The notes under the pieces were generated by a model that had not been told where the DNA came from, made no database searches, and was given only the letters and a program-made list of their open reading frames with translations. From positions 1-64,000 of IMG/VR virus record IMGVR_UViG_2934734009_000001: a stretch of 64,000 bases of DNA, one strand, 5' to 3'. Source of the stretch: a virus (lineage: Duplodnaviria; Caudoviricetes). The stretch's first letter is position 1. Each line of letters begins with the position of its first letter. A program made the translations under genes and the position numbers. Of this stretch, positions 43,605 to 63,994 are shown piece by piece.

Positions 43605-43787
43605 ATGGCGAGGTTCACGGTCCACGGCCGCACCCAGGACGAGTGCCAGCAGGCGCTGGACGACCTGCGCCGGCTGCTGGACGTCGAGGTGACCCTGCCG
43701 CCCACAGACCGGCTCGGTGGGTCGTGGATCGCCCGCGCAACGCGCAAGGCCCCGGACCAGACGGTCCGGGGCTTTGCTGTGCGGTGA
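43605..43787 (+). CDS. Small hypothetical protein
   Basis: MARFTVHGRTQDECQQALD...WIARA. Confidence 0.65.
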   Translation: MARFTVHGRTQDECQQALDDLRRLLDVEVTLPPTDRLGGSWIARATRKAPDQTVRGFAVR

Positions 43788-44890: not shown

Positions 44891-45076
44891 GACCCTGCCT
44901 GGACCGTGTCCGGCAGTTGCGTTTCCGCAGGTGGCGACCCTGCCCGGACCCTGTCTGGGCGGATTGGATGCCGTTCCAGGCCGGGGCGACCCTGCCCGTG
45001 CGGGGCAGGGTCCGGGCAGGGTGTCCGGTGAGCTGACCTGCGGTGATGCGGGGCCGGGCAGGGTCGGGGCAGGGTG
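44891..45076. repeat. clt-like array of 8-bp (G/C)ACCCTG(C/T) repeats
   Basis: Forward copies at 44891, 44936, 44947, 44988; reverse copies at 45005, 45016, 45058, 45069; immediately downstream of the TraB-like gene. Confidence 0.75.
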
Positions 45077-45086
45077 CAAAAGTGAT

Positions 45087-47300
45087 CTATAGGGCGGCGT
45101 GGAGGGCGGCGAGCTTGAATCCACGCCCCTCCCCGCCGTCCGCCGTCGACACCTTCACGGCCTTCAACTCGACCTCGTCGGCCTCCAGGTCGGCAGACAG
45201 AAGCTTCCCGGCCCGCGACCCGTACTGGGCGTCGCTCTCCGCGTCGCCCCGCTCGTATCGCTCGTCGACCGTGGCCATGTACGCGAAGACCTCTCCGCGG
45301 GTCGCTTCGCCGCGGCCGGTGGCGGTGACGGCCTTGACGATGTGGTCGAGGATCGTCGGCTCCGCCTCGGCCTGGACCGCGGTGCCCTTTCCGGTGGGCC
45401 CGCCGGCGACCATGCTGATGCCGGTGTCGGCCCTGAGCTGGTCCTCGATCGGGTCCGGGCAGTGCTGGGGCAGGCGGCCTATGGCCTGGCGGAGCGCCAT
45501 GCCCGCCTTGGCGGCCTTGCGGAGGTCCCCGTTCTCGACGTCGACAAACAGGGAGCGGGCTTCGATGAATCCGGTGTCGGGAGTGGTGAGCCAGCCGCGA
45601 CCCCGGGTCGACTTGCTGTTCTTGATGTCGCTGGCGTCGTACCCGTCGCCCGCAACACCGTCACCGAGGATGGTGTTGGACGCTGTTGCGGACTCGACGC
45701 GCATCGACCACCGGCCAGCACAGTTGCCGCGGAGCCGGGACGGAATGACGTCGACCTTGGGGTGCTGGGTGGCGAGGACGAGGATGATCCCGACCGCGGC
45801 GCCGACAGCCGCGATCTGGGCGAGGAGCTCGACGCTTTCTTCGGCGTACTGGCCGTTGAGACCGCCCTTGACGGTGTACGTGGCGAGCTCGTCGACGATG
45901 ACGAGTTCGATGCCGCCGAGCTCCTCCAGGAGCTCCTCGGTGGCCTTGGAGACACCGAGGTCGACGAGGATCTCGGTGCGTCGTTCCAGTTCGGCGACGA
46001 GGACCTTGAGGAAGTCGCGGAGCCGTTCGGGGTTGCGGCGGACGAACGTGTCGAGGGCGGGGGCGATGCCGACGTACTCGCCGGTGCCCTTGCCGTCGAA
46101 GAGGCGGACACGGATGCGGGGGTCGAGCATGGCGCCGACGAGGAGGTTCGCGACGGCCATGCCCTTCCCGGAGCGGGTGGTGCCACCGACGAGCAGCGAG
46201 TAGTCGGAGATGGTGGCGAGGATGATGCTGCCGCGCTTGTCGAAACCGAGCGGGAGGCCATCACGCCAGGCGTTGACCTTGTCTGTGGTGCCGATGAGGG
46301 GGTTGGGGACGGCCCTGCCGAACGGGTCGGTCATGGACACCCACAGGCTCAGGTGGTCTTCGCGGCCTTCGTGGCGGATGTCCATCTGGTGCTTCGGGAT
46401 ACCGAGCGCGGAGGCCAGGGATCCGGTCTTCTTCTGTACGTCGGCGACTTCGACGCCGCCGGTGACCTCCAGGTGAGCAAGCCAGGCTCGCCCGTCCTGG
46501 ATAACTGGGGAACGGAACACAACGGCCTGGTCGGCCTTGATGATCCCGGCGTCACGGAACGCCCGGTCGATCATGTCGTCGGTCATCCGGTCGCCGTTGC
46601 CGATCTTCGCGTCCCGGTCGGTGTACACCTCTCCGCCCATGGTGCGCCGGCCGATCAGGGCGAGCGCGAGGAGAGCGGATCCGGTGGCGATGACACCGCC
46701 GGTGCCGCCAATGAGGTAGATGCCAGCCCCTTCCGGTACAGCGATGGCTGCGGCGGCGAGCGCACTGCGGGCTCCGCGCCGGACCCGGGCGTCCTTGCGG
46801 GCGGACTTGTACTTGGTCATGGCGGTAACGGAGCCGGCGAACGCTTTCTCCATGACGACGCGCCGCTTGTTCTTTTCAGGTCCGGGGATGAGCCGCTTGT
46901 CGTGCCCCCACTTCGCGGTTTTGTAGTCGGCCTGGGCCTGCTGGACTTCGCGGCGGGCGGTGGCGACCTGGACGCCTTCGGTGCCCTGGATCCAGAGGAA
47001 CGTGCGCCGCATGCCCCGGAACAGCTGGGCGCCGTGTCCGTGTTCGCCACCCTGTCGGCGGACCCACCGGCGGAACGCCCGGGTGGAGTTGACCTTGCCG
47101 ACCGCAGCACGGGTGCGCCACCCGGCGGAGGTGCGTACCCACTCCGGGGTGAGGGGGGTGTCGCCGAGAAGGTCGGGCCGGTTGACGGGGGTGTCGGCGG
47201 TCTTCTGGAGGAGCGGGCTGTCGGCCTTGTCGGCGAAGCCGGCGATGAGCTTGTCCCACTCCGGGTCTGGGGTGCTGGCGGGGGTGGTCTCGATGCTCAC
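45087..47300 (-). CDS. traB: FtsK/SpoIIIE-family conjugative DNA translocase (TraB-like)
   Basis: Two TMs; GGTTRSGKG Walker A; FDGKG; LVIVDELA Walker B; LATQ-P; C-terminal wHTH-sized domain; GAGGAG RBS before GTG. Confidence 0.88.
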   Translation of the reverse strand: MSIETTPASTPDPEWDKLIAGFADKADSPLLQKTADTPVNRPDLLGDTPLTPEWVRTSAGWRTRAAVGKVNSTRAFRRWVRRQGGEHGHGAQLFRGMRRTFLWIQGTEGVQVATARREVQQAQADYKTAKWGHDKRLIPGPEKNKRRVVMEKAFAGSVTAMTKYKSARKDARVRRGARSALAAAAIAVPEGAGIYLIGGTGGVIATGSALLALALIGRRTMGGEVYTDRDAKIGNGDRMTDDMIDRAFRDAGIIKADQAVVFRSPVIQDGRAWLAHLEVTGGVEVADVQKKTGSLASALGIPKHQMDIRHEGREDHLSLWVSMTDPFGRAVPNPLIGTTDKVNAWRDGLPLGFDKRGSIILATISDYSLLVGGTTRSGKGMAVANLLVGAMLDPRIRVRLFDGKGTGEYVGIAPALDTFVRRNPERLRDFLKVLVAELERRTEILVDLGVSKATEELLEELGGIELVIVDELATYTVKGGLNGQYAEESVELLAQIAAVGAAVGIILVLATQHPKVDVIPSRLRGNCAGRWSMRVESATASNTILGDGVAGDGYDASDIKNSKSTRGRGWLTTPDTGFIEARSLFVDVENGDLRKAAKAGMALRQAIGRLPQHCPDPIEDQLRADTGISMVAGGPTGKGTAVQAEAEPTILDHIVKAVTATGRGEATRGEVFAYMATVDERYERGDAESDAQYGSRAGKLLSADLEADEVELKAVKVSTADGGEGRGFKLAALHAAL

Positions 47301-48646
47301 TTCTGCTCCTCGGTGGCGTCGGGCTGTACGGCGTCGCGGACTCGGCGGGCGTAGACCTTGCTGCGGCCGAGGAGCTTGGCGACGGCGGGGGTGGAGAACT
47401 GCTCGGCGGGTACGGCGTCGCGAAGCTTCTTCGCTGCTTCGATGTCCTCGCTCCGGAGGGGCTCTACGGCGTCGGTTCGGGGAGCGCGGCCAGAGGGTTG
47501 GTTGCCAATCCCCCCAAGGGCTCCAGACTTCTTCGGGTCGACCGGGCGACGGGCCCGTGACCCTCCCCCTGCACCACCCTTCGGCCCGCCTTCTGCGGGC
47601 TTCTGAGACGGTCCGCTGTCGCCGCCGTCGGGGCGGAAGATCTCGGCGAGGAGCCGGTCGACCGCTTCGCTCTCGGGGGTGCGGTCGACGTTCGACAGGA
47701 CCGCGTTGATCGCGGCGCGCGCTTCCTCGCGGCCGGCGAGCGTGTCCGCTGTCGTGGCGAGCGGAAGTAGGTGCTCGTTGTCCCACGCCTGCTGCCACGC
47801 AGCCTCGCGGCTGATCGCCCCGGTGGGGTGCGCGACGATGATCCGCTCGTACTCCGTGAACTCTCGCGGGAAGAGCTTCTTCCGCCGCTTGTCCTCAGTC
47901 GCGTGGACCTTCGCGAGCGCCCGCTGCTCCCGTGCCTGCTTCTTCGCCGCGGCTTTCGCGGCGGCGCGCTGCTCCAGGCTTCGGGTGTCGGCGGCGGCCC
48001 GACCTTCGAGGAAGTCCCGGACCTCTGCGAGGACCGGTCCGATCACCGAGGTGGCGGCCAGGGCGACACCGGCAACGATCCCGTACTCGTCCATGCCGTG
48101 CGCCAGGTTGATGTACCCGGCGACCGAGGCCAGCGAGGCGGTCAGGACCCAGAACGGCCACCGGGGCAGCCCCTTGCGGTGCGCCCACCGGGTGCCGAGG
48201 ACACCGACCCAGGCGAGGAGCTCCAGGAAGAACGGAATGGGTCCGAGAAGCCACGCGGTGCTGGGGTTCTTCTCACCCTCCTTGTGAAGGGTGAGGAAGT
48301 ACGACAACTGAGCGGGGAGTGCGGCGAGGAGGCCAAGGACGACGGCGACGTTGACGATGAGCTTGAACGCGGTGCCGTTGTCGGCACTGGCCTCGCGGCG
48401 ACGGGCCTTGAGCTCCGCCTTCTCGTCCTTGGCGGCTTCGGTGACGGCGTCGAGCTTCTTCTTGAGCCCGGCCTGCTTGACCTGCTCGGCGAGGAGGTCG
48501 GTGGCGGTCTTGGCAGCCCCGGCCTCGGCGGCCTGGGAGCCGGCAGTACGGGCGGCTTCGGCTTCGGCGGAGATGCGTGCCGCCTCAGCGCGGGTCTTCT
48601 CGGCGGCGGCCTCACGCTCCTCCCAGGAACGGTAGTCGGCACTCAT
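47297..48646 (-). CDS. Spd-like (DUF2637-type) multi-TM protein with coiled coils and C-terminal HTH
   Basis: Four TMs, coiled coils, FSTPAVAKLLG-S--YARRVRD; coupled to traB. Confidence 0.75.
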   Translation of the reverse strand: MSADYRSWEEREAAAEKTRAEAARISAEAEAARTAGSQAAEAGAAKTATDLLAEQVKQAGLKKKLDAVTEAAKDEKAELKARRREASADNGTAFKLIVNVAVVLGLLAALPAQLSYFLTLHKEGEKNPSTAWLLGPIPFFLELLAWVGVLGTRWAHRKGLPRWPFWVLTASLASVAGYINLAHGMDEYGIVAGVALAATSVIGPVLAEVRDFLEGRAAADTRSLEQRAAAKAAAKKQAREQRALAKVHATEDKRRKKLFPREFTEYERIIVAHPTGAISREAAWQQAWDNEHLLPLATTADTLAGREEARAAINAVLSNVDRTPESEAVDRLLAEIFRPDGGDSGPSQKPAEGGPKGGAGGGSRARRPVDPKKSGALGGIGNQPSGRAPRTDAVEPLRSEDIEAAKKLRDAVPAEQFSTPAVAKLLGRSKVYARRVRDAVQPDATEEQK

Positions 48647-48691
48647 GACGGTGTGTCCTTCCGGGACGGGTGGGGGTGACGGGCAGGCGGG

Positions 48692-49018
48692 TCAGGCGGG
48701 CTTGGGGATGGCGCGGCAGGTCTCGGCGTGGGACTGCGCCCACTTCTTGGCGCCAGGGAGGAAGCTCTCGTCGGTGGAGTCGAAGTTGAGTTGCGGGCCC
48801 TTCCCGAACTCGTCGTGATAGGCGTCGAACCCCCAGTCCTCGGTGCGGGTGTCACCGCATCCGTGACAGGCGATGAAGTGCTCGGTCGGAAAAGCGATGC
48901 CGTAGTAGCCGGGGCGCTCGGCGATGTCGACGGCGATGTCGTCGCGGCCGAGGGGCGATCCGGCGACGGTGAGGTAGCGGGCGATGACGTTCTCGGGCCA
49001 GACGGTCTGCGCAGTCAT
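48692..49018 (-). CDS. Zn-binding hypothetical protein
   Basis: WPE-VIARYLTV-G, CHGC, WAQ-HAE-CRA-P-P. Confidence 0.8.
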   Translation of the reverse strand: MTAQTVWPENVIARYLTVAGSPLGRDDIAVDIAERPGYYGIAFPTEHFIACHGCGDTRTEDWGFDAYHDEFGKGPQLNFDSTDESFLPGAKKWAQSHAETCRAIPKPA

Positions 49019-49036
49019 GGCGGGTGTCCTTTCGGG

Positions 49037-49231
49037 TCAGATGCGGGCGGTGGCGGGGTTCTTGCCGCGCAGGTGGGTGAGGGTGGCGACACCGAGCCCG
49101 AAGCCCAGCAACACGGGCTGGGCGGCTACGAACTGCACGGTCGCGGCCAGCACATTGGCAACGGCCTGGGCGAGGCTGGGGAACAGGATCAGCAGCACCA
49201 GGGCTGCGGCGATCAACATCAGCTTCTTCAC
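49037..49231 (-). CDS. Small membrane protein
   Basis: Two hydrophobic segments; GGAGG RBS. Confidence 0.7.
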   Translation of the reverse strand: MKKLMLIAAALVLLILFPSLAQAVANVLAATVQFVAAQPVLLGFGLGVATLTHLRGKNPATARI

Positions 49232-49273
49232 GGGGTGCGCCCCTCCGGGCTCGGGTTTGGGTGGTACGGGATA

Positions 49274-49321
49274 GCCCCGGGCGGGAGTTGATCCCGCGCC
49301 CTCGCGGCTGAAAGCCGGGGC
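49274..49321 (-). ncRNA. Mini tRNA-like structured element, copy 1
   Basis: GCCCCGG-CTTTCA-GCC(GCGAG)GGC-GCGGG(ATCAACT)CCCGC-CCGGGGC. Confidence 0.6.
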
Positions 49322-49329
49322 TGTGATCA

Positions 49330-49515
49330 CTACTTGTGCGGGCAGCGACCCTTGCAGGTGCACGGGACGTCGATCTGGTTGCGGATCGGGGCGAGAACGG
49401 CGTTGGCGACGGCGTCTCCGGCGCGCCCCCCTGCCTTCCCAGCAGCCTTGGTGCCCGCCCGGTGCAGAGCACCAGCGGCGGAGTCGAGCTTCTCGGCAGC
49501 CTTGCGTCCGAACAT
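49330..49515 (-). CDS. Small protein (MFGRKAAEKL...C-C-G-CPH)
   Basis: AAGGAG RBS; flanked by the two structured elements. Confidence 0.75.
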   Translation of the reverse strand: MFGRKAAEKLDSAAGALHRAGTKAAGKAGGRAGDAVANAVLAPIRNQIDVPCTCKGRCPHK

Positions 49516-49554
49516 TGGGTTCTCCTTCGGTATGACCGACCTGGTGGTCGGAGC

Positions 49555-49601
49555 GCCCCGGGCCGGAGTCGATCCGGCAGCCTCACGCCGTAATCCGGGG
49601 C
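49555..49601 (-). ncRNA. Mini tRNA-like structured element, copy 2
   Basis: GCCCCGG-ATTAC-GGC(GTGAG)GCT-GCCGG(ATCGACT)CCGGC-CCGGGGC. Confidence 0.6.
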
Positions 49602-49607
49602 GGCGGG

Positions 49608-49856
49608 TCAGCGGTTCAGCCAGCCGGCGCGCCGGCCGTCGCCGTCCGCAGCGACGACCTTCTCGACGTAGGCCACGACCTCTTCGCCGCGGGCATTGCA
49701 GCCCTTTGCCGTCAGCGCAGCCGCCAGGGTGCCGGTCCGGAACGTGGCCGCAGCCTCCTGGTCACCGCCCTTGACGGCCTTGCGAATGTCCTTGGTGAGT
49801 CCGGCGTGGCCGCTGACCTCAGTCGCGGTGTCGGTGATCCGGCTAAACAGGCCCAT
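49608..49856 (-). CDS. Small protein (MGLFSRITD...)
   Basis: GAAAGGA RBS. Confidence 0.75.
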   Translation of the reverse strand: MGLFSRITDTATEVSGHAGLTKDIRKAVKGGDQEAAATFRTGTLAAALTAKGCNARGEEVVAYVEKVVAADGDGRRAGWLNR

Positions 49857-49949
49857 GACGGTCCTTTCGGGTCAGTGCCCGGCGGATGCGGCCGGGCTTC
49901 GCGGTGATCAGATACGAGTGCACGACAGCCCCTTCTCGGAGCCGATGGG

Positions 49950-50333
49950 TCAGCGGCAGCGTCGGCAGCCAGCGCCGTGGGCGATGCGGCACAGCTCGGC
50001 CGGGGTGAAGCCGCCCAGGGTGCCGGTGTGGGTGACCTCGGTTTCCATCACGCGCCCGCGTCCGCTGCCGTCGGGGACGTCGATCTCCCACCCGGTGGTG
50101 GCGTACTTGCCACGACCGACCTTCTTGATCTGTCCGACGGTCCTGACCCGGGCGCGCTTTGCTGCCTTGGCCTCCCGGCGTTCCTGCGCACGGGCCATCG
50201 CGGTCTGCTTGGCCTCCTGGTAGACGGCCTCCGGGATGGCTGCCGCAGGGGTGGCTGCCGCAGCCTGCTGGGCGGCGCGATAGCGCTCCTCCGGGGTGCT
50301 GACACGGTCGATCTTTCGGCTGAACAGGCCCAT
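49950..50333 (-). CDS. Small protein (MGLFSRKID...)
   Basis: GAGAGGA RBS; Cys-rich C-terminus. Confidence 0.75.
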   Translation of the reverse strand: MGLFSRKIDRVSTPEERYRAAQQAAAATPAAAIPEAVYQEAKQTAMARAQERREAKAAKRARVRTVGQIKKVGRGKYATTGWEIDVPDGSGRGRVMETEVTHTGTLGGFTPAELCRIAHGAGCRRCR

Positions 50334-50362
50334 GGCGGTCCTCTCGGGTCGGGGGGCTTCGG

Positions 50363-50593
50363 CTACCGGCTGGTCTCTGCGGCGACCGCGGCTTCCCGCA
50401 CCTCGGCGATCGCCGCGGCAATCCGACCGGTGTCCCCGCCTGCCGCCTCGTTGAGCTGCCGGGCGGCGGCGGTCTGCCGGTTGATGTCGTCGTCCGACAT
50501 GCGACCCGGGTTCGTGAGGGCACCGCTGTGGGCGACCTCGGACAGCAGGTTGGCGGCGGCCTGACGCTCGGCGGGGGTGCTACGTCCGAACAC
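50363..50593 (-). CDS. Small protein (MFGRSTPAE...)
   Basis: AAGGAG RBS. Confidence 0.75.
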   Translation of the reverse strand: MFGRSTPAERQAAANLLSEVAHSGALTNPGRMSDDDINRQTAAARQLNEAAGGDTGRIAAAIAEVREAAVAAETSR

Positions 50594-50608
50594 GGAGTTC
50601 TCCTTGGG

Positions 50609-63584: not shown

Positions 63585-63994
63585 GTGCTGGCCTCCTTGG
63601 CGATGGCGTTCTCGTAGCAAGCGCGGGCGGCAATGAACTGGGCGTCGGTGCCGCCCCGGTCGGGATGGGCTGCGGCCATCTCGGCTTTGAGCCGGGGCAG
63701 GTCGAGATCCCACTGAGGCGGGAAGGTCTGCGGCGGCTGGGCGTGAAGCCGGAGGTCCGGCTCCCACCACTGGCCTCGCCGGGTGATCTCACCGTCGGTC
63801 TCAAGGCGGTACCGGTCGACGAACCGGATGCGCGGGCCTCGGCCATAGAGCTCGGCGTCGTAGTAGATCCGCTTCGCGGTCTTCTTCGTGATCCGGAAGG
63901 CGACGACGCTCTCGGGCTGCCAGTCGTCGTTGGCATCGAAGCGGCCGGGCTTGATGCCGTACAGGAACTCAACCTGCACCGGGGCGGCGCTCAT
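63581..63994 (-). CDS. Hypothetical protein with C-terminal partial J-domain
   Basis: ITKKT-KRIYY N-domain; AHPDRGGT-A-F--A---YE. Confidence 0.75.
   Translation of the reverse strand: MSAAPVQVEFLYGIKPGRFDANDDWQPESVVAFRITKKTAKRIYYDAELYGRGPRIRFVDRYRLETDGEITRRGQWWEPDLRLHAQPPQTFPPQWDLDLPRLKAEMAAAHPDRGGTDAQFIAARACYENAIAKEAST

What the first reader, a model, noticed from the sequence alone, without database searches (positions are those of the whole stretch)
49274..49601. Two covarying mini-tRNA-like elements punctuate the transfer operon
Seen on the coding strand: 49274-49321 and 49555-49601 both fold as a 7-bp GCCCCGG/CCGGGGC stem, a 5-6 nt linker, a 3-bp hairpin with a GYGAG loop, and a 5-bp stem with a 7-nt ATCRACT loop stacked directly on the 7-bp stem. 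That is the 7+5 bp acceptor/T-arm geometry of tRNA with no D or anticodon arm. The inner stems differ by compensatory changes (GCGGG/CCCGC vs GCCGG/CCGGC; GCC/GGC vs GGC/GCT), so structure rather than sequence is conserved. They bracket one 61-aa gene. Known: RNase P and RNase Z recognise the acceptor/T-arm stack, and P1 C4 and P4 CI RNAs are RNase P-matured. Inference: an undescribed tRNA-mimic processing signal that cuts the polycistron or releases ~48-nt RNAs (stoichiometry control, or decoys for tRNA-targeting defences).
Basis: partly seen in the sequence, partly recalled or inferred. Interest (0 to 1): 0.85.

Follow-up and report, generated by a model that had tools for sequence, protein, structure and literature searches.

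The report
tRNA-like RNA punctuating Streptomyces transfer operons
Two 47-48-base folds between small genes of a Streptomyces gene-transfer operon belong to a conserved, undescribed family of RNA structures shaped like the top half of a tRNA, which probably mark where the long messenger RNA is cut or stabilised.

Summary
Both elements lie on the coding (minus) strand, 6 and 8 nt after stop codons and 39 and 42 nt before the next start. They belong to a real family. A covariance model built from 13 copies found 175 distinct sequences. It hit 24 of 151 Streptomyces species genomes, at 1-5 matches each, and in a class-wide sample only Streptomyces plus one true tRNA.

The stems covary, G·U pairs mark the coding strand, and the 7-bp + 5-bp stack is almost invariant. 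Elements share TraB's strand in 29 of 29 cases and lie upstream of it in 28 of 29. Rfam 15 holds no such family, and my literature searches found no description.

The tRNA likeness is real but partial. The model scores true tRNAs at 31-38 bits. Larger relatives in the same operons carry a canonical UUCGAAU loop, and ARAGORN calls them D-armless tRNAs. But position 54 is A, no CCA is encoded, and tRNA detectors reject both window copies.

Type II hammerhead ribozymes occupy the same after-stop positions in three of these operons, which favours an RNA-cutting role. Cleavage itself is untested, because no RNA run was listed. First readers of this scan noted look-alikes on another genome, unchecked.

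The parts
49555..49601 (-). Element A, 47 nt, read 5'->3' from 49601. P1 is 49601-49595 with 49561-49555. Linker 49594-49590. P2 is 49589-49587 with 49581-49579, loop GTGAG 49586-49582. P3 is 49578-49574 with 49566-49562, loop ATCGACT 49573-49567.
   Evidence: model R1 71.6 bits, E 1.2e-12
49274..49321 (-). Element B, 48 nt, read 5'->3' from 49321. P1 is 49321-49315 with 49280-49274. Linker 49314-49309. P2 is 49308-49306 with 49300-49298, loop GCGAG 49305-49301. P3 is 49297-49293 with 49285-49281, loop ATCAACT 49292-49286.
   Evidence: model R1 67.5 bits, E 9e-12
49608..49856 (-). 82-aa gene (MGLFSR...). Its TGA stop lies 6 nt before element A.
49330..49515 (-). 61-aa gene (MFGRK...) between the two elements. 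Its ATG lies 39 nt after element A, with a GAAGGAG ribosome-binding site. Its TAG stop lies 8 nt before element B.
   Evidence: 28 homologous clusters
49037..49231 (-). 64-aa hydrophobic small gene. Its GTG start lies 42 nt after element B.
45087..47798 (-). TraB-type FtsK/SpoIIIE translocase ORF, downstream on the same strand. The true start is probably later, because this ORF overlaps ORF 47297-48646.
   Evidence: Pfam PF01580, E 8.6e-10

Best explanation
**What it is.** The two elements are members of a conserved family of about 47-nt structured RNAs. They sit in the intercistronic gaps of TraB-type transfer/spread operons of Streptomyces plasmids, integrative elements and prophage-like elements.

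**Fold.** Each copy folds on the mRNA into a three-way junction:
- a 7-bp closing stem;
- a 3-bp hairpin with a GYGAN loop;
- a 5-bp stem with a 7-nt AUCRRMU loop, stacked without a gap on the 3' strand of the closing stem.

This copies the 12-bp acceptor/T-arm stack of tRNA, followed by a purine 'discriminator' and a C.

**Proposed mechanism (inferred, not shown).** Transcription reads through the element. The fold is then recognised by the host's tRNA-end-processing endonucleases: RNase P at the 5' edge and an RNase Z-type cut after the discriminator. The long TraR/GntR-controlled transcript is thereby split between cistrons. Each segment then has its own stability and translation level, including the toxic TraB, and a ~48-nt tRNA-like by-product is released.

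**Status of each step.**
- Shown: family, structure, strand, position, distribution, partial tRNA likeness, and co-occurrence with self-cleaving ribozymes at equivalent sites.
- Inferred: which enzyme acts, that cleavage happens at all, and what follows from it.
For: **Family and structure**
- A pattern scan of viral contigs gave 13 loci.
79 of the 80 listed rows came from five sources: Streptomyces, Actinacidiphila, Amycolatopsis, an uncultured Streptomyces MAG and an Actinomycetota MAG.
- Model R1 found 98 matches in 80 loci and 81 matches in 67 loci.
- In all there are 175 distinct sequences. In the 162 of standard length, P1 is fully paired in 149, P3 in 157 and P2 in 141.

**Covariation**
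- 99.0% of cells pair, against 92-93% in shuffles. 55-57 cells change on both sides, against 10-11 in shuffles. No shuffle out of 500 reaches any of the five measures, and sliding the partner columns collapses pairing.
- At one P3 position where the scan pattern allowed C or G independently on both sides, the counts are CG 80, GC 15 and no mismatch. My arithmetic from the marginals expects about 25 mismatches.
- Rare double compensations also occur in P1: GCTCTGG/CCAGAGC, GCCTCGG/CCGAGGC and GCTCCGG/CCGGAGC.

**Strand**
- 71 G·U pairs against 18 A·C mismatches.
- The reverse strand scores about 15 bits, against 54-73 bits forward.

**Position**
- 49 of 100 copies lie behind a same-strand ORF that passes a strict filter, against 9 in the opposite-strand control. 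45 of those 49 gaps are 4-20 nt.
- 93 of 100 copies have a downstream ORF. The commonest spacing is 36-42 nt, mostly with a ribosome-binding site.
- Elements share TraB's strand in 29 of 29 cases and lie upstream of it in 28 of 29.
- There is no room for a promoter, and no promoter-like or terminator-like site in 48600-50600. Downstream genes must therefore be read through the element.
- For pSVH1, passages read in PMC4447253 conclude that one large TraR-controlled transcript runs to traB.

**tRNA likeness**
- There is never an insertion between P3 and the 3' strand of P1.
- One 32-nt copy lacks P2 but keeps the 7+5 stack.
- In the 42-nt variants with a canonical TTCGACT loop, two are 6+6 bp.
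- The +1 position is a purine in 185 of 191 copies, and +2 is C in 189 of 191.
- R1 scores a true tRNA-Phe at 31 bits and a true tRNA-Leu at 37.8 bits.
- ARAGORN calls D-armless tRNAs on the same strand in L042 and L090. Their model R2 cross-hits the mini elements at 28-31 bits.

**Functional analogy**
- Type II hammerheads at 50.1 and 46.0 bits (gathering score 37), and a third at 32.1 bits, sit just after stop codons in the same operons and on the same strand.

**Precedent (passages read)**
- Plant mitochondrial t-elements direct RNase P/Z cuts at mRNA ends (PMC1920247).
- Clustered hammerheads flank single genes in prophages and are proposed to cut long transcripts into gene-length mRNAs (PMC3088659).
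Against: - No RNA data: nothing shows a cut, a processed end or a small RNA.
- The loop departs from the T-loop rule. It has A, not U, at position 54 in 153 of 162 copies, and G at position 58 in 31 of 162.
- RNAfold prefers an A54-U60 pair, giving a 6-bp stem and a 5-nt loop. The 54/60 positions show no double compensation: A-T 153, G-T 2, A-C 2.
- CCA is not encoded above background: 7 of 191 against a 4.3% background rate.
- Pairing between -1 and +73 is not avoided beyond what composition predicts: 21 observed against 24.8 expected.
- ARAGORN finds no tRNA in the window, and the Rfam tRNA model gives only 17.9 bits against a gathering score of 29, with a different alignment.
- In 3 of 3 loci that carry homologues of the 61-aa gene, the element is absent and plain GC hairpins occupy the same after-stop gaps. 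A generic stem-loop can therefore fill the niche.
- P1 is far more conserved in sequence than pairing alone requires, with GCCCCGG/CCGGGGC in 133 of 162 copies. This hints at sequence-specific recognition that RNase P does not need.
- The samples lean on a sequence pattern and on a model fitted to the structure, so conservation is overstated.
Confidence: 0.42

Rival explanations
1. A generic intercistronic 3'-end and stability element. The stable GC-rich fold acts as a partial, U-less ('I-shaped' or Rho-related) terminator, or as a barrier to 3'-5' exonucleases. It sets a step-down in transcript abundance between cistrons and has nothing to do with tRNA enzymes.
For: - Loci with homologues of the 61-aa gene carry plain GC hairpins right after the stops where the window has the elements (3 of 3).
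- Passages read in the S. clavuligerus Term-seq paper (PMC8269248) describe a class of 3' ends at GC stem-loops without U tracts. They also describe non-terminal 3' ends inside transcription units that may tune abundance between genes.
- The fold is very stable.
- TraB is toxic when over-expressed (PMC4447253, passages), so attenuation upstream of it would be useful.
Against: - A barrier or terminator needs only a stable stem. Here the loop sequences, the exact 7/5/7 geometry, the zero-nt junction and the flanking CA...AC are conserved over 175 distinct copies.
- There is no U tract.
- The same operons use a different, U-tailed hairpin where a terminator-like signal occurs.
- Essential downstream genes lie 36-42 nt behind the element with no promoter, so termination cannot be strong.
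Confidence: 0.27
2. A specific protein-binding RNA. A host or element-encoded protein recognises the conserved closing stem and loops, and controls translation or coupling of the neighbouring small genes.
For: - The P1 sequence is nearly invariant, with GCCCCGG/CCGGGGC in 133 of 162 copies.
- The loops GYGAN and AUCRRMU, and the flanks -2 C, +1 R and +2 C, are conserved.
- A second motif of these operons, the U-tailed leader hairpin, uses the same 7-bp arms. There are 31 such hairpins, against a mean of 6.8 for 35 permuted arms.
Against: - No RNA-binding protein or nuclease gene recurs with the element. The recurrent same-strand neighbours are TraB, DUF6284, DUF6251, a PycTM-like membrane protein and unnamed small proteins.
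- Compensatory P1 variants exist, so pairing matters and not only sequence.
Confidence: 0.15
3. A DNA-level or single-stranded-DNA signal: a recombination junction of a 'small ORF + element' cassette (attC-like), a single-strand origin, or a relic or decoy of a tRNA attachment site.
For: - In other plasmids the element is often the only alignable stretch. 7 of 17 plasmid hits cover just 49-86 nt over an element.
- 'ORF + element' units recur (unchecked first-reader notes).
- Integrative elements of this kind target tRNA 3' ends. This is recalled; I only glimpsed it in G002, where tRNA-end repeats lie about 22 kb apart around two copies.
Against: - TraB-type transfer moves double-stranded DNA (abstract of PMC4447253).
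- Copies occur in 90-130-kb plasmids and in chromosomes as well as in small plasmids.
- Orientation is always that of the operon, and placement is always between stop and start.
- The sequence differs from host tRNA 3' ends by at least 3 of 24 positions.
- The copies are internal to the operon rather than at the ends of the mobile element.
Confidence: 0.08

Closest known systems
t-elements of plant mitochondria (tRNA-like processing signals; Forner et al. 2007, PMC1920247, passages read)
   Same: - Non-canonical tRNA-like folds with a conserved pseudouridine-arm-type stem-loop.
- Embedded next to protein genes in long transcripts.
- Their edges coincide with mRNA ends made by RNase P and RNase Z.
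- The excised element can persist as a small RNA.
   Different: - Those are organellar, mostly full cloverleaf relics with a GGTTCRANYCC arm, and have mapped ends.
- These are bacterial mobile-element motifs of 47 nt with no D or anticodon arm and A at position 54.
- They form a tight sequence family, and no ends have been mapped.
Clustered hammerhead ribozymes flanking single genes in prophage operons (Perreault et al. 2011, PMC3088659, passages read)
   Same: - Small structured RNAs placed between cistrons of mobile-element operons, proposed to cut long transcripts into gene-length mRNAs.
- Here type II hammerheads occur in the very same operons, on the same strand and at the same after-stop position.
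   Different: Hammerheads cut themselves. The tRNA-like element has no known catalytic core and would need a host enzyme.
tRNA proper, and the tRNA-like domain of tmRNA (the tmRNA comparison is recalled, not tested)
   Same: - A 7-bp acceptor-type stem stacked on a 5-bp stem with a 7-nt xUCRxxx loop, a G-C closing pair and a purine after the stem.
- R1 scores real tRNAs at 31-38 bits.
   Different: - No D arm and no anticodon arm.
- A54 instead of U54.
- No CCA.
- Rejected by ARAGORN and below the Rfam tRNA threshold. No tmRNA hit in Rfam.
RNase P-matured phage RNAs (P1 C4, P4 CI) and MALAT1 mascRNA
   Same: Non-tRNA transcripts whose ends are set by tRNA-processing enzymes acting on a tRNA-like fold.
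   Different: - Those are single regulatory or 3'-end-forming RNAs.
- Here there are one to several copies per operon, placed between coding cistrons.

Membership tests
tRNA gene (Rfam RF00005 / ARAGORN) | Detected by tRNA-specific models above threshold | tested here: not met
   ARAGORN finds 0 genes in the window. The Rfam tRNA model gives 17.9 bits against a gathering score of 29, E 1.4, for element B only and with a different alignment.
tRNA gene (Rfam RF00005 / ARAGORN) | 7-bp acceptor stem stacked without a gap on a 5-bp T stem | tested here: met
   P1 has 7 of 7 pairs in 149 of 162 copies. P3 has 5 of 5 pairs in 157 of 162. There is no insertion between P3 and the 3' strand of P1.
tRNA gene (Rfam RF00005 / ARAGORN) | T-loop U54-U55-C56-R57-A58 (consensus recalled) | tested here: not met
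   U55, C56 and R57 are kept. Position 54 is A in 153 of 162 copies, and position 58 is G in 31 of 162.
tRNA gene (Rfam RF00005 / ARAGORN) | D arm and anticodon arm | tested here: not met
   A 4-7-nt linker plus a 3-bp hairpin replace both arms. 11 distinct copies carry one extra hairpin.
tRNA gene (Rfam RF00005 / ARAGORN) | Discriminator followed by encoded CCA (optional in many bacteria) | tested here: not met
   A purine lies at +1 in 185 of 191 copies and C at +2 in 189 of 191. NCCA occurs in only 7 of 191, against a 4.3% background rate.
tRNA-like mRNA processing signal (t-element type) | tRNA-like fold embedded in a longer transcript next to coding sequence | tested here: met
tRNA-like mRNA processing signal (t-element type) | Transcript ends that coincide with the edges of the element | not testable with these tools
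   No run on record as RNA was listed for this stretch.
tRNA-like mRNA processing signal (t-element type) | Cleavage by RNase P and/or RNase Z | not testable with these tools
   This needs a bench assay.
Intrinsic (Rho-independent) terminator | GC-rich hairpin followed by a U tract | tested here: not met
   0 terminator-like sites in 48600-50600. The 3' flank is C-rich, and at positions +4 to +14 T is at most 25 of 191 per position.
U-less 'I-shaped' terminator / 3'-end hairpin of GC-rich bacteria | A stable GC stem-loop at a mapped 3' end without a U tract | tested here: inconclusive
   The stable fold is present. No 3'-end data are available. This class is described for Streptomyces in PMC8269248.
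Dispersed extragenic repeat (REP/MITE type) | Many copies per genome, scattered, in either orientation | tested here: not met
   1-5 matches per genome in 24 of 151 genomes. Same strand as TraB in 29 of 29 cases.
clt / TraB recognition repeats | Clustered direct 8-bp repeats next to the end of traB (recalled) | not tested
   The elements lie upstream of traB. An unchecked first-reader note places a clt-like array at 44891-45076.
Any Rfam 15 family | A match at the family's gathering score | tested here: not met
   0 matches in the whole window. Nothing better than E 0.29 in 48800-50100.

The most novel reading that the evidence does not exclude
Streptomyces conjugative elements use 'tRNA punctuation'. 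A dedicated family of armless tRNA mimics, interchangeable with hammerhead ribozymes at the same after-stop sites, lets host RNase P/Z dice the transfer-operon transcript into single-gene mRNAs. It also releases ~48-nt tRNA-like RNAs that may receive CCA and act on their own. This would be a bacterial counterpart of mitochondrial tRNA punctuation and plant t-elements.
Probability: 0.35. Interest if true: 0.9.

Novelty: new variant of a known kind. Interest (0 to 1): 0.74.

Why it matters
If the elements are cut by tRNA-processing enzymes, bacterial mobile elements would share a gene-expression device so far documented for organelles and a few eukaryotic and phage RNAs.

It would explain how operons packed with very short genes and a toxic translocase set different protein doses from one repressor-controlled transcript.

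It would also add a compact, portable RNA part for Streptomyces engineering.

Even if the mechanism differs, this is a well-supported structured-RNA family that Rfam lacks. It has a narrow host range, a fixed genomic niche and an unexplained partnership with hammerhead ribozymes.

Tried and rejected
- **Third copy in the window (63653-63698).** Rejected. It scores 26.6 bits, has no P3 and lies inside an ORF.
- **Derivation from the host tRNA-Phe.** Rejected. The tRNA-Phe with the identical GCCCCGG acceptor stem (L111) sits in an AT-rich, unrelated genome. It matches five Streptomyces-type genomes at only 73-76% identity over comparable lengths, plus 90% over a 30-nt stretch.
- **The conserved CUCC tail masks the next ribosome-binding site.** Rejected. 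The ribosome-binding site pairs to the tail in 5 of 74 copies.
- **Avoidance of a -1/+73 pair.** Not significant: 21 observed against 24.8 expected.
- **Gene-anchored test.** Homologues of the 61-aa gene were found in 3 of 401 genomes. None of those 3 loci has the element.
- **RNA evidence.** No RNA holder was listed.
- **Literature.** Searches found no description of the motif. Supplements are closed, so the motif lists of PMC5737381 could not be checked beyond its main text. I recall, but did not check, that the motifs of that paper are in Rfam. Rfam 15 itself gave no match.
- **Not run.** Structure prediction, protein-complex prediction and the protein-atlas search, because the feature is RNA.

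Full report
**The observation**

The genes between about 43 and 52 kb of the window run on the minus strand and end in a TraB-type FtsK/SpoIIIE translocase.
- a 7-bp GCCCCGG/CCGGGGC stem;
- a 5- or 6-nt linker;
- a 3-bp hairpin with a GYGAG loop;
- a 5-bp stem with an ATCRACT loop that abuts the 3' strand of the outer stem.

RNAfold returns this Y shape as both the minimum-energy and the centroid structure. It adds an A-U pair that would shrink the 7-nt loop to 5 nt.

Element A starts 6 nt after the TGA of an 82-aa gene and ends 39 nt before the ATG of the 61-aa gene. Element B starts 8 nt after the TAG of the 61-aa gene and ends 42 nt before the GTG of a 64-aa gene. The 61-aa gene is real: it has 28 homologous clusters, the named ones all Streptomyces.

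The window is a 'provirus' record of 80.8 kb, and the host genome is not held.

**A real family**

- A strict pattern for the 3' half found 13 viral-contig loci.
- A covariance model (R1, 15 pairs) built from 13 copies then found diverged extra copies in those loci. One has a doubly compensated outer stem, GCTCTGG/CCAGAGC.
79 of the 80 listed rows came from five sources: Streptomyces, Actinacidiphila, Amycolatopsis, an uncultured Streptomyces MAG and an Actinomycetota MAG.
- R1 found 98 matches in 80 of those loci, and 81 matches in the other 67 loci searched.
- Without any pattern, R1 hit 24 of 151 Streptomyces species genomes, 34 matches in all, 1-5 per genome.
- In 151 genomes spread over the class, R1 hit two Streptomyces and one true tRNA.
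- In annotated plasmids the element falls in unannotated gaps. One 32-kb plasmid has three copies, each 8-12 nt after the stop of a 50-62-aa gene. These lie downstream of a GntR regulator and a DUF2637 gene and upstream of traA-traB.

**Structure and strand**

- Of 175 distinct sequences, 162 have standard length. P1 is fully paired in 149, P3 in 157 and P2 in 141.
- On both model-made alignments, 99.0% of cells pair against 92-93% in shuffles. 55-57 cells change on both sides against 10-11 in shuffles. No shuffle of 500 reaches any measure, and sliding the 3' partners collapses pairing.
- These alignments are fitted to the model and the sequences are related, so the figures flatter the structure.
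- A cleaner point comes from a P3 position where the scan pattern allowed C or G independently on each side. The pairs are CG 80, GC 15 and none mismatched. By my arithmetic about 25 mismatches would be expected.
- G·U pairs outnumber A·C mismatches 71 to 18, and the reverse strand scores about 15 bits against 54-73 forward. The selected fold is therefore on the coding strand.
- P1 is nearly fixed in sequence (133 of 162), which pairing alone does not explain.

**Position**

- 49 of 100 copies pass a strict same-strand upstream-ORF filter, against 9 in the opposite-strand control. 45 of those 49 lie 4-20 nt after the stop.
- 93 of 100 have a downstream ORF. The commonest spacing is 36-42 nt, mostly with a Shine-Dalgarno sequence.
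- Where a TraB homologue is in the fetched locus, the element is on its strand in 29 of 29 cases and upstream in 28 of 29.
- Recurrent same-strand neighbours are TraB, DUF6284, DUF6251, a PycTM-like protein and unnamed small proteins, with a divergent GntR/UTRA regulator.
- There is no promoter-like or terminator-like site in 48600-50600.
- The 3' flank is C-rich, not U-rich.

**How tRNA-like is it?**

For:
- The 7+5 stack with a zero-nt junction is almost invariant.
- A 32-nt copy keeps the stack without P2. Two 42-nt variants with a canonical TTCGACT loop split the 12 bp as 6+6.
- Eleven distinct copies insert a further hairpin, giving a cloverleaf-like four-way junction.
- +1 is a purine in 185 of 191 copies and +2 is C in 189 of 191.
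- R1 scores a true tRNA-Phe at 31 bits and a true tRNA-Leu at 37.8 bits.
- In the same operons and on the same strand, ARAGORN-68-nt D-armless 'tRNAs'. These have a GCCCCGC/GCGGGGC acceptor stem, an AUAGGCAA linker, a variable arm, a CGCGG-UUCGAAU-CCGCG arm and the same AC tail. Their model R2 cross-hits the mini elements at 28-31 bits.

Against:
- A at position 54 in 153 of 162 copies and G at position 58 in 31 of 162.
- No encoded CCA above background.
- No special avoidance of a -1/+73 pair.
- Both window copies are rejected by ARAGORN and score below the Rfam tRNA threshold.

The element is a partial mimic, not a tRNA.

**Hammerheads in the same niche**

- Rfam scans of related loci found type II hammerhead ribozymes on the element's strand, starting at or just after stop codons. 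They score 50.1 bits in L040, 46.0 bits in L056 and 32.1 bits in L090, against a gathering score of 37.
- Operon maps show the order ORF, mini tRNA-like, ORF, hammerhead, and so on.
- In the genus sample, hammerheads occur in 8 of 151 genomes. These include same-strand arrays of 17 within 10 kb and 9 within 9 kb.
- The type II tRNA-like element lies about 170-290 nt downstream of a hammerhead in 5 of the 6 loci that have it.
- Perreault et al. proposed that clustered prophage hammerheads cut long transcripts into gene-length mRNAs (PMC3088659, passages).
- Plant mitochondrial t-elements are tRNA-like signals for RNase P/Z at mRNA ends (PMC1920247, passages).
- A self-cleaving RNA and a tRNA-like fold share one niche in one operon. 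This is my main indirect argument for a cutting role.

**Weighing the mechanisms**

The best reading (0.42) is a tRNA-mimic processing signal for host RNase P/Z that splits the long transcript.

The chief rival (0.27) is a generic stability or partial-termination structure.
- For it: in 3 of 3 loci with homologues of the 61-aa gene, plain GC hairpins fill the same gaps and the element is absent. U-less 3'-end hairpins are also documented in Streptomyces (PMC8269248).
- Against it: the conserved loops, exact geometry and flanks, and the need for read-through to traB.

A specific RNA-binding protein (0.15) would explain the fixed P1 sequence and its reuse in a second, U-tailed leader hairpin of these operons. 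No candidate gene recurs, however.

DNA-level roles (0.08) fit the cassette-like 'ORF + element' units but not the strand-specific G·U pattern or the fixed orientation.

**Novelty**

- Rfam 15 gives no match.
- Full-text searches found no description. Supplements were closed.
- First readers of this scan noted look-alike elements on another genome, unchecked.

I rate this a new variant of a known kind: a tRNA-like processing or structural signal in a bacterial conjugative operon, forming a new RNA family.

**Limits**

- There are no RNA data.
- The samples are biased by a sequence pattern and by model-fitted alignments.
- E-values from R1 and R2 are rough, because calibration was shortened.

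Noticed in passing
L040:1504-1566(-), L056:7450-7519(+), L090:722-785(-); G045:C21:51062-61360; G131:C34:59734-68524: [quoted passage not shown] In other Streptomyces genomes they form same-strand arrays of 17 and 9 copies, about 0.2-3 kb apart, mostly 0.3-0.7 kb.
   Followed up: partly
L042:2002-2069(+), L090:490-555(-), L040:1221-1285(-), L183:1788-1864(+), L184:1795-1863(+), L186:1746-1821(+): There is a larger D-armless tRNA-like element with a canonical UUCGAAU loop, an AUAGGCAA linker and a variable middle arm. It occurs in 3 of 151 genomes. In 5 of the 6 loci that have it, it lies about 170-290 nt downstream of a hammerhead, sometimes with no ORF predicted between them.
   Followed up: partly
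e.g. L127:7627, L104:2955, L067:6969, L016:2550, L017:1291; window 43749-43772: A second recurrent motif is a 12-bp GC hairpin with the same GCCCCGG/CCGGGGC core arms, a UGUUU(C)GGG tail and closing AACGGC/GCCGTT, lying 10-15 nt before a ribosome-binding site. There are 31 such hairpins in 1.02 Mb, against a mean of 6.8 for permuted arms. 13 lie 22-66 nt after a tRNA-like element, and two lie in the GntR/first-gene leader of plasmids.
   Followed up: partly
L206:1501-1692, L207:1501-1683, L208:1501-1668 (strand as): Homologues of the 61-aa gene in three other genomes are flanked by plain GC hairpins right after the stops, not by the tRNA-like element. The after-stop gap is a general site for structure in these operons.
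   Followed up: partly
window 49330-49515(-) and 49608-49856(-): The small proteins that precede the two elements begin MFGRK and MGLFSR. First-reader notes report the same pairing of an MGLF-type small ORF with a tRNA-like element on another genome, as a duplicated unit.
   Followed up: no
G002:C1:6305938-6305961(-) and 6327926-6327949(-), around copies at 6313277 and 6316626: Two identical tRNA 3'-end-like stretches about 22 kb apart, on the same strand, bracket the two element copies. This is as expected for the attachment-site repeats of an integrated element.
   Followed up: no
L111:1253-1326(-): One hit of the genome-wide pattern is a genuine tRNA-Phe(GAA) in an AT-rich, unrelated genome. 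Its acceptor stem is identical to P1. This shows that the pattern derived from the element is compatible with real tRNA 3' halves.
   Followed up: yes
window 63653-63698(-): This stretch has the same outer arms and a similar small hairpin but no third stem, and it lies inside an ORF. It is a chance match or a decayed look-alike.
   Followed up: yes
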